A stretch of 64,000 nt of DNA, taken from contig OZ024742.1 of assembly GCA_964016885.1 (NCBI GenBank), positions 230,702,001 to 230,766,000 of the forward strand, given 5' to 3'. The first letter of the stretch is position 1; each line of letters starts with the position of its first letter. Below are positions 17,901 to 18,635 of this stretch, piece after piece. The notes under the pieces are model-generated. The model did no database searches. It was not told the origin of the DNA and saw nothing but the letters and a program-made list of their open reading frames with translations. Origin of the DNA: Eledone cirrhosa (lineage: Eukaryota). A program made the translations under genes and the position numbers.

Positions 17901-18635
17901 TATATCATAAATCATGTCTATAGAATCAATCAGATATTAAAATATATACTATTTCTTCTTCTAATTAGCATAATTAACCATATACATAATCAAATCTAGC
18001 AAGCTTTAAGAATAAATTTTCTAACGGGGAAATCTCCGACAAACAATTGATCGCAGCTAGTTAGCGGTAGCTCCGTTCCACTATTTATCAAACACTTCGG
18101 CAGCATGCAGAATCCGATCAAATATACCATCAACCGCACGTAATTAGTAGTAAAATTAAACTTAGAAGAAATGCGCACATACCGTAATTATATCTCTACC
18201 ATGGTTTCTTCCTTATTTAGGACATCCAAATAATATGGATTTGCCCTGAGTTAGGAATCATCAGGAGACAAACTCAGAATCAGACATTTAATTTCTCAAA
18301 CCGACCGCGCCAAATTTAGATTCAAAAATGGCTAAGATCGCTATGTAGCTGTGTACCAGCCAGAGAGAAAGCGTGTGATTGGTTGCTTACGGCGGGTAGG
18401 CTTGCTGCTAGAAAGCGCAGCCATATATCGCCAAATTTAATCTCAACCAATAGGGAGATTATTAAATATAGAGGTTATCACATACATAAAATTAAATTAA
18501 ATTAAATCAAAGATATATATATGTGTTGCAACTGTTCACTTTTAAGCTCAATGAAGAATTAATAAATTAAAATCAAAAAATCAGAGCATTATATCATAAA
18601 TCATGTCTATAGAATCAATCAGATAATAAAATATA
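17901..18635 (-). mobile_element. Retrozyme/pLTR-like element B (689-bp unit with ~40-bp terminal direct repeat)
   Basis: tatatcataaatcatgtctatagaatcaatcagata at 17901 and 18590; internal hammerhead; (TA)n both sides. Confidence 0.75.
18192..18269 (-). ncRNA. Type I hammerhead ribozyme
   Basis: gtctc CTGATGA ttcct...aggaa GAAA CCATGG TA gagat; all three helices intact, palindromic helix III, GUA triplet. Confidence 0.88.

What the first reader, a model, noticed from the sequence alone, without database searches (positions are those of the whole stretch)
17901..18635. Element B: unrelated 689-bp hammerhead unit with the same architecture, adjacent to element A
Contains the cleanest hammerhead in the window (gtctc CTGATGA ttcct..aggaa GAAA CCATGG TA gagat) and a ~40-bp terminal direct repeat. 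It is on the same strand as A and separated only by a short TA run. Two unrelated sequences sharing one design suggests a common mobilising machinery and serial insertion into one microsatellite. Co-transcription would release an A/B chimeric RNA of roughly 800 nt between the two cleavage sites (inference).
Basis: partly seen in the sequence, partly recalled or inferred. Interest (0 to 1): 0.75.

Follow-up and report, generated by a model that had tools for sequence, protein, structure and literature searches.

The report
Hammerhead-bearing parasite of Penelope retrotransposons
This is one copy of an abundant protein-free repeat that carries a conserved hammerhead-ribozyme motif, predicted to cut its own RNA, and sits in TA microsatellites; it is likely pasted there by the enzymes of Penelope-like retrotransposons, which makes it a new example of a known kind (animal retrozymes), and its neighbour A is a separate insertion of similar design.

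Summary
In detail: a 689-bp unit with a 46-nt overlap (45/46 identical) and a type I hammerhead (0 of 5000 shuffles). B is 1.07 units of a large family (end motif 2847 exact hits). The 'terminal repeat' is not an LTR: among 17 uninverted copies it runs from 7 to 541 nt because 5' ends vary, while 3' ends sit at fixed internal sites next to (TA)n. In 34 of 36 inverted insertions one arm ends at site 1 and the other 75-127 nt further on. Element A (12/13) and two protein-coding Penelope-like families (5/5, 3/3) do the same. Helix II covaries. B and A share an enlarged loop II with a predicted pseudoknot and inner hairpin. The B-A junction occurs once in the genome; 7 of 40 unselected B loci abut another Penelope end, so stacking is ordinary. 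An 802-nt chimeric RNA is possible but would likely be a dead end. No coding parent was found; cleavage and circles are untested. This scan reached the same reading earlier on other DNA. Verdict: new member of a known kind.

The parts
17901..18635 (-). Element B insertion: one 689-bp unit plus 46 nt of the next (1.07-mer), non-coding
   Evidence: longest ATG frame 44 aa
18590..18635 (-). 5' copy of the overlap (pseudo-LTR); 5' junction falls on an internal TATAT that matches the (TA)n target
17901..17946 (-). 3' copy of the overlap, ending at site 1 (unit 43-46), the commonest family 3' end
   Evidence: 114 of 167 TA-flanked 3' ends
18463..18589 (-). 'Tail' segment (unit 47-173) holding the alternative 3' end sites (unit 121-123, 138, 154, 166-177)
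   Evidence: 50 of 167 TA-flanked 3' ends; 34 of 36 inverted insertions use one on exactly one arm
18306..18451 (-). Promoter-like stretch with two CCAAT-type and one TTTGGCGCG motif upstream of the ribozyme (motif names recalled; function untested)
   Evidence: positions
18271..18275 (-). GAGUU, 5' strand of the predicted pseudoknot with loop II (AACUC, 18252-18248)
   Evidence: pair 4 U-A 75, C-G 36, U-G 3 of 118 distinct sequences
18191..18270 (-). Type I hammerhead: helix I 18270-18265/18196-18191, core 18264-18258, helix II 18257-18253/18213-18209, inner hairpin 18247-18219, GAAA 18208-18205, palindromic helix III 18205-18198, predicted cut after 18197
18631..18777 (.). 5' flank: (TA)13 then (AG)61; target microsatellite
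17889..17904 (.). (TA)8 spacer between the 3' end of B and the 5' end of A
17334..17890 (-). Element A: independent 522-bp family (1.07-mer), 3' end sites at unit 35 and 153
17390..17469 (-). Hammerhead of A: core 17464, GAAA 17408-17405, palindrome ACUAAUUAGU, predicted cut after 17395; same enlarged loop II design

Best explanation
Element B is a 1.07-unit copy of an abundant non-coding tandem family with a conserved type I hammerhead motif, likely copied into (TA)n by the reverse transcriptase-endonuclease of a Penelope-like element acting in trans. Inferred cycle: dimeric or longer loci are transcribed from an internal promoter; the ribozyme would cut once per unit, giving ~689-nt monomers that would likely be closed into circles; a Penelope-type enzyme would nick (TA)n and start cDNA at fixed TA-rich sites inside the RNA (site 1, or site 2 75-127 nt downstream), run for a variable length past one unit, and stop. 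That gives a fixed 3' end, a variable 5' end and an overlap that looks like a terminal repeat; when both target strands prime, one arm ends at site 1 and the other at site 2. Each insertion leaves (TA)n at its ends, so later elements land next to it; A and B are stacked this way. Shown: structure, copy number, end pattern, covariation, unique junction. Inferred: enzyme source, cleavage, circles, promoter.
For: Family size: 2796 candidates, 2847 exact end-motif hits and 1412 exact ribozyme-pattern hits, reversed-pattern controls 0. Ends: 167 of 219 3' ends are TA-flanked, 164 of those at site 1 or 2; 34 of 36 inverted insertions are site 1/site 2, none site 1/site 1. Same rule in A (12 of 13) and in two coding families, L116 (5 of 5, tail 64-68 nt) and L152 (3 of 3, tail 65-66 nt). 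Long RT + GIY-YIG frames exist in the genome (938 and 1096 codons stop to stop). Ribozyme: helix II 135 of 165 cells paired, 23 double changes, 0 of 2000 shuffles; core intact in 30 of 39 copies picked without regard to the ribozyme, core columns 98.6% versus 91.4% (8 of 10000 random sets). Circular monomer folds at z -4.3 and -5.6, antisense 0.2, eight background windows -2.0 to 0.8. Multimers exist, including an array of dozens of units. Published structure of such insertions: PMC8557442, PMC11167929.
Against: No coding parent or specific helper: none of 220 matches to a B-type hammerhead pattern in 238 loci joins a Penelope frame without a TA gap, and B aligns to none of five coding-family ends (z below 1). 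No cleavage or RNA data. Eight of nine Xenopus retrozyme dimers did not cleave in vitro (bioRxiv 10.64898/2026.07.22.740005) and cleavage was dispensable for insertion in PMC11167929. Folding excess is weak in several subfamilies (z 0.7 to -3.6 in eight). The first pair of helix II is not a standard pair in 11 of 33 sequences. Units within an insertion are mostly 95-100% alike, which fits a circle but also a homogeneous dimer transcript. Shuffle controls ignore relatedness.
Confidence: 0.82

Rival explanations
1. B copies are truncated ends (solo or tandem pseudo-LTRs) of a coding Penelope-like element not yet sampled, not a separately riding RNA.
For: Same end pattern as coding families; 5' truncation is the rule for such elements; only 150 of 10596 GIY-YIG candidates were scored and about 50 loci fetched.
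Against: Multimers close unit end to unit start with no frame between; none of 220 ribozyme matches joins a coding frame without a TA gap; subfamilies 68-99% alike all keep the ORF-less 640-710-nt unit. A pseudo-LTR origin long ago remains likely.
Confidence: 0.09
2. The hammerhead is kept as a fold (protein binding, processing only with protein help) and the template is a linear multimeric transcript; no circle is involved.
For: In PMC11167929 the ribozyme cut only with protein and was not needed for insertion; Penelope ribozymes are weak in vitro (PMC4209133); dimers and arrays could supply more-than-unit templates.
Against: Catalytic core positions are the best conserved columns; helix II and pseudoknot covary; coral and mussel retrozymes cut as single motifs and make circles (PMC7229834). 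This rival differs from the best explanation only in the RNA-processing step; as a variant within it I give it about 0.35.
Confidence: 0.05
3. One reading: B is bounded by true terminal repeats and A+B act as a composite unit that releases a functional chimeric RNA.
For: Same strand, short spacer, both ribozymes well formed, 802 nt between cut sites.
Against: Overlap length 7-541 nt across copies; junction found once in 3.0 Gb; palindromes cannot cross-pair (-1.0 versus -11.2 and -9.0 kcal/mol); a circle would join A's 5' helix I strand (CUUCC) to B's 3' strand (GAGAU), which do not pair.
Confidence: 0.02
4. A satellite spread by DNA-level mechanisms (unequal crossover, rolling-circle DNA).
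For: An array of dozens of units exists on contig C1.
Against: Dispersed copies have fixed 3' ends, variable 5' ends and inversions; strand-specific RNA folding and covariation. DNA-level growth probably explains only the long array.
Confidence: 0.02

Closest known systems
Metazoan non-LTR retrozymes (Cervera and de la Pena 2020, PMC7229834; Li, Clavereau, Pollet, bioRxiv 10.64898/2026.07.22.740005)
   Same: Non-coding, low-GC (34%) tandem units with one type I hammerhead each; monomers to multimers; two-pair helix III with a tetraloop; co-occurrence with coding Penelope-like elements; well-folded predicted circle.
   Different: Unit of 689 nt (150-450 nt in the 2020 paper; 51-972 in the preprint); loop II enlarged to 39 nt with an inner hairpin and a predicted Watson-Crick pseudoknot; strict (TA)n targeting; no molluscs among the groups listed in the preprint; no coding parent found here.
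Penelope-like elements, Neptune/Hydra/Naiad types (Craig et al. 2021, PMC8557442; Cervera and de la Pena 2014, PMC4209133)
   Same: Partial tandems forming pseudo-LTRs, 5' truncation, inverted 5' arm, tail at one end only, (TA)n bias, palindromic helix III.
   Different: No reading frame; tail 75-127 nt against 30-40 nt in print and 64-68 nt in two coding families here; ribozyme enlarged, not minimal.
Poseidon element PAc of the green anole (Frangieh et al. 2024, PMC11167929)
   Same: Two internal start sites of reverse transcription that bracket the tail; both target strands cut and extended; AT-rich targets.
   Different: There the start sites do not match the cut DNA and lie in the ORF; here they are TA-rich matches to the target and lie in non-coding RNA.
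Pseudoknot-stabilised hammerheads (Perreault et al. 2011, PMC3088659)
   Same: A 4-6 bp pseudoknot that holds helices I and II together, known in all three hammerhead types.
   Different: Here combined with a palindromic short helix III and a hairpin insert in a Penelope-type rider; activity untested.

Membership tests
Type I hammerhead ribozyme | Core CUGANGA, GAAA, NUH with three helices | tested here: met
   core intact in 30 of 39 unselected copies
Type I hammerhead ribozyme | Match to an Rfam hammerhead model | tested here: not met
   no hit to E 10; long loop II and short helix III are the likely reason (inference)
Type I hammerhead ribozyme | Conserved G10.1-C11.1 pair | tested here: inconclusive
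   U-A in this copy; G-C in 28 of 118 distinct sequences, other standard pairs 50, mismatches 40
Type I hammerhead ribozyme | Self-cleavage | not testable with these tools
   needs in vitro transcription
Non-LTR retrozyme | Non-coding tandem unit, one type I hammerhead per unit, dimers or longer present | tested here: met
   longest ATG frame 44 aa; 43 consecutive ribozyme pairs 626-707 nt apart, some loci overlapping; long array
Non-LTR retrozyme | Low GC and self-paired predicted circle | tested here: met
   GC 34%, z -4.3 and -5.6, antisense 0.2; weaker in other subfamilies
Non-LTR retrozyme | Circular RNA in tissues | not testable with these tools
   no RNA holder listed
Non-autonomous Penelope-like element | Partial tandem, 5' truncation, inverted arm, one-sided tail | tested here: met
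   same in coding families
Non-autonomous Penelope-like element | Coding RT + GIY-YIG partners in the genome | tested here: met
Non-autonomous Penelope-like element | Sequence shared with the pseudo-LTR of a named coding family | tested here: inconclusive
   none among the families sampled; sampling was partial
Autonomous Penelope-like element | RT and GIY-YIG frame | tested here: not met
LTR retrozyme / LTR element | Fixed terminal repeats each with a type III hammerhead, short target duplication | tested here: not met
   overlap 7-541 nt; ribozyme type I and outside the overlap in this copy; duplication unreadable in (TA)n

The most novel reading that the evidence does not exclude
Families A and B descend from one enlarged, pseudoknot-locked hammerhead that cuts fast as a single motif, a ribozyme subclass evolved by protein-free riders of Penelope elements. 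Thousands of young copies make ~690-nt and ~520-nt circles, and their strict one-arm-per-site rule records a dimeric reverse transcriptase starting on both target strands from one RNA, with the site spacing set by the RNA and not by the enzyme.
Probability: 0.3. Interest if true: 0.6.

Novelty: new member of a known kind. Interest (0 to 1): 0.38.

Why it matters
The class is known, but how Penelope-type enzymes make pseudo-LTRs, inversions and tails is still open. These short, young, numerous copies give a clean genomic rule (one arm per start site: 34 of 36 in B, 12 of 13 in A, 8 of 8 in two coding families) and small natural RNA templates for an in vitro test. The enlarged ribozyme with a covarying pseudoknot offers a direct test of whether riders gained faster single-motif cleavage than their hosts. 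The A/B adjacency itself is ordinary.

Tried and rejected
RNA evidence: no RNA holder listed; three runs of one sample, contigs only, cover A and B as repeats and say nothing on expression. Rfam: only microsatellite-driven noise and a tRNA-like hit in the window, nothing at B. Search for a coding parent: GIY-YIG loci, ribozyme-pattern loci and a joint scan found none. A recalled Pfam accession was not in the library. A-B body homology: pairwise z 1.5 and 3.2 with shuffles reaching higher scores, nhmmer best E 0.3; a short shared tail motif is only a lead. I first mis-registered A's ribozyme on an inner GAAA and judged it defective (note 2); one search corrected this. A 7-pair pseudoknot did not beat shuffles (1879 of 2000); only the 4-5 pair core is claimed. 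Two of 35 ribozyme rows were dropped before (L105, an unrelated pattern hit; L006, rearranged). In one search the results for families L119 and L129 are void because the references held TA runs. An extended pairing of the upstream UGUCU with loop II was considered and dropped (not kept in subfamilies L139, L113). Luense et al. 2017 was not held.

Full report
Setting. The window lies on contig C3 of a 3.0-Gb genome, 22-41% GC and full of microsatellites. A dispersed repeat in it resembles an octopus SINE as I recall it; the host was not tested, and earlier AI notes also call the genome octopus-like.

Observation. On the minus strand, 18635-17901 is one 689-bp unit plus 46 nt of the next; the overlap is 45 of 46 identical and no other period from 680 to 699 fits. 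The hammerhead reads helix I (6 bp), CUGAUGA at 18264, helix II (5 bp) closing a 39-nt loop, GAAA, the palindrome ACCAUGGU and a predicted cut after GUA at 18197. None of 5000 shuffles of the unit gave as good a motif. Against it: Rfam has no hit to E 10, and the local minimum-energy fold differs from the hammerhead fold.

The family. A DNA search gave 2796 candidates, 40 scored, with full-length copies 93-99% identical. Exact patterns gave 2847 hits for the 3' end motif and 1412 for one ribozyme form, with 0 for reversed controls. Subfamilies 68-97% alike keep a 626-707-nt unit without a frame (longest ATG frame in B 44 aa). Dimers and trimers are common and one array on C1 has dozens of units.

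The 'terminal repeat' is a pseudo-LTR. In the 30 best loci (27 distinct insertions), the 17 uninverted copies that end at unit position 46 start at scattered positions, so the overlap is 7 to 541 nt (computed). Over all 239 loci held, 167 of 219 B 3' ends are followed by (TA)n; 114 of these end at unit 43-46 (site 1), 50 at 121-177 (site 2) and 3 elsewhere. The other 52 were not all inspected; those seen were mostly alignment breaks or ends followed by imperfect TA runs. The loci were picked with queries holding site 1, so its share is inflated. Other TATA tracts of the unit (18428-18423, 17948-17942) are not used as 3' ends, so a TA match is not enough.

The two-site rule. Of 36 inverted insertions with both outer ends in (TA)n, 34 have one arm ending at site 1 and the other at site 2; none is site 1/site 1, although the sampling bias favours that; two had an end elsewhere. 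Element A does the same in 12 of 13 (sites 35 and 131-158), and so do two coding families: L116, 5 of 5, and L152, 3 of 3, with tails of 64-68 nt. Craig et al. describe partial tandems, inverted truncated arms and a 30-40-bp tail at one end only as the mark of Penelope-like elements (PMC8557442; passages and section 11 read). Frangieh et al. show two internal start sites that bracket the tail and extension of both target strands (PMC11167929; parts 1-2 of 4). This is the main ground for naming the machinery.

Possible helpers. GIY-YIG gave 10596 candidates, 150 scored. Of 19 such loci fetched with long flanks, two have long frames of 938 and 1096 codons with RT and GIY-YIG (five of six proteins scanned hit both domains, L152's fragment none). 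A CxxxxCxxC linker suggests Neptune type for L116, L118, L119 and L129 (recalled criterion). Their ends sit in (TA)n and carry their own small ribozymes, some with the U3-A8 core known from PMC4209133 (parts 1-2 of 4 read). None matches B, and none of 220 matches to a B-type pattern in 238 loci joins a coding frame without a TA run. The helper is inferred, not named.

The ribozyme is under selection. In 33 distinct sequences, helix II has 135 of 165 cells paired and 23 double changes (0 of 2000 shuffles; slid controls 57-80 paired); helix I 171 of 198 (3 of 2000). The whole structure scored 86.6% paired, 29 double-changed cells, 0 of 500 shuffles. Those rows were picked by the core, so I checked 40 loci picked by the end motif only: 30 of 39 copies that cover the ribozyme have an intact core, and core columns are 98.6% conserved against 91.4% overall. 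The first pair of helix II is weak: mismatched in 40 of 118. Loop II holds a hairpin in nearly all rows and a 5-nt segment that pairs with the strand just 5' of helix I: GAGUU/AACUC, GAGCU/AGCUC, GAGCA/UGCUC, GAGCG/CGCUC. Pair 4 is U-A in 75, C-G in 36 and U-G in 3 of 118; on a 52-row tree this is about one switch at pair 4 and two at pair 5, so few independent events. A longer 7-pair version fails the shuffle test. Such pseudoknots speed hammerheads (PMC3088659, passages). The circular monomer folds at z -4.3 and -5.6; the antisense at 0.2; eight other subfamily units at 0.7 to -3.6; eight background windows at 0.8 to -2.0.

Element A. It is its own family: 522-bp unit, 2079 candidates, 3055 end-motif hits. 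Its ribozyme, which I first mis-read, is well formed in 49 distinct sequences (helix II 285 of 343 with two covarying pairs, helix I 234 of 245) and has B's design, with GAGAA/UUCUC as the pseudoknot in 39 of 45 scored. The bodies of A and B show no significant similarity. Yet the invariant GAG/CUC pairs, and a GAAACCAUGG(U) stretch inside the loop of older A subfamilies, hint at a shared ribozyme ancestor. That is a lead only.

The adjacency. The B-to-A junction pattern has one hit in the genome, this locus. Of 40 unselected B loci, 7 have the end of a coding Penelope-like family within 150 bp (four different families) and none has A that close. A review states that these elements tend to insert beside earlier copies (PMC6765202, passages). 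But the palindromes cannot cross-pair (-1.0 kcal/mol against -11.2 and -9.0), so each would have to cut alone or with its own kind, and a circle would have a broken helix I. This B copy has one ribozyme and cannot by itself release a 689-nt unit.

Comparison and novelty. B fits the non-LTR retrozymes of coral, mussel and axolotl (PMC7229834; passages and parts 2-3 of 6), which a 2026 preprint derives from Penelope pseudo-LTRs; there 1 of 9 dimers cleaved in vitro (bioRxiv 10.64898/2026.07.22.740005; parts 1-3 of 5; its supplements are closed). Five searches listed no paper on cephalopod retrozymes or on a pseudoknotted Penelope-type hammerhead; an Octopus vulgaris repeat annotation lists Penelope families and has no occurrence of 'ribozyme' (PMC13282606, passages). 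Luense et al. 2017 and the supplements of Craig et al., which may list such variants, were not seen. Earlier notes of this scan reached the same class on other DNA of this and other genomes; no note lay near this locus or matched by sequence.

Verdict. Real, well supported, and a new member of a known kind. Confidence 0.82 for a non-coding rider of Penelope-like machinery; about 0.7 that the ribozyme cuts and 0.55 that circles are the template (judgement). Interest 0.38.

Noticed in passing
window 16039-16273 (-): 3' end of a coding Penelope-like family (98% to L129) with a small U3-A8 hammerhead variant at 16199, ending in (TA)n, 1.1 kb from A on the same strand.
   Followed up: partly
window 5454-5860: Inverted pair of a third hammerhead-bearing family (cores at 5564 minus and 5718 plus; 8-bp helix I, palindrome AUGCGCAU); relatives in L121, L126, L163.
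   Followed up: partly
window 19-230, 3726-3809 and 61973-62219: Ends of two more coding Penelope-like families (L152 type, L119 type), next to TA runs where inspected.
   Followed up: partly
L038, L153, L154, L220, L235 (A-type ribozymes): Older A subfamilies carry GAAACCAUG(G/U)U inside loop II, the same right half as B's ribozyme, as if one CUGAUGA had two alternative right halves.
   Followed up: partly
L135, L155 (G000:C1 about 92.986-93.015 Mb): Array of dozens of B-type units of 656-667 bp with recurring variants, about 95-97% alike between neighbours, next to a different 466-bp hammerhead tandem.
   Followed up: partly
tails of A, B and ends of L116, L119, L152 families: A short CAAAGT-like motif recurs near the 3' end sites, at or near the start of the frame in coding families; could be a binding site or chance in AT-rich DNA.
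   Followed up: no
window 16400-16590 and 16720-16870: Long inverted-repeat elements beside TA runs, about 0.2 kb from the A end cluster; not classified.
   Followed up: no
window 33545-33615 (+): tRNA-like Rfam hit above the family threshold (38.8 bits), probably a SINE head.
   Followed up: no
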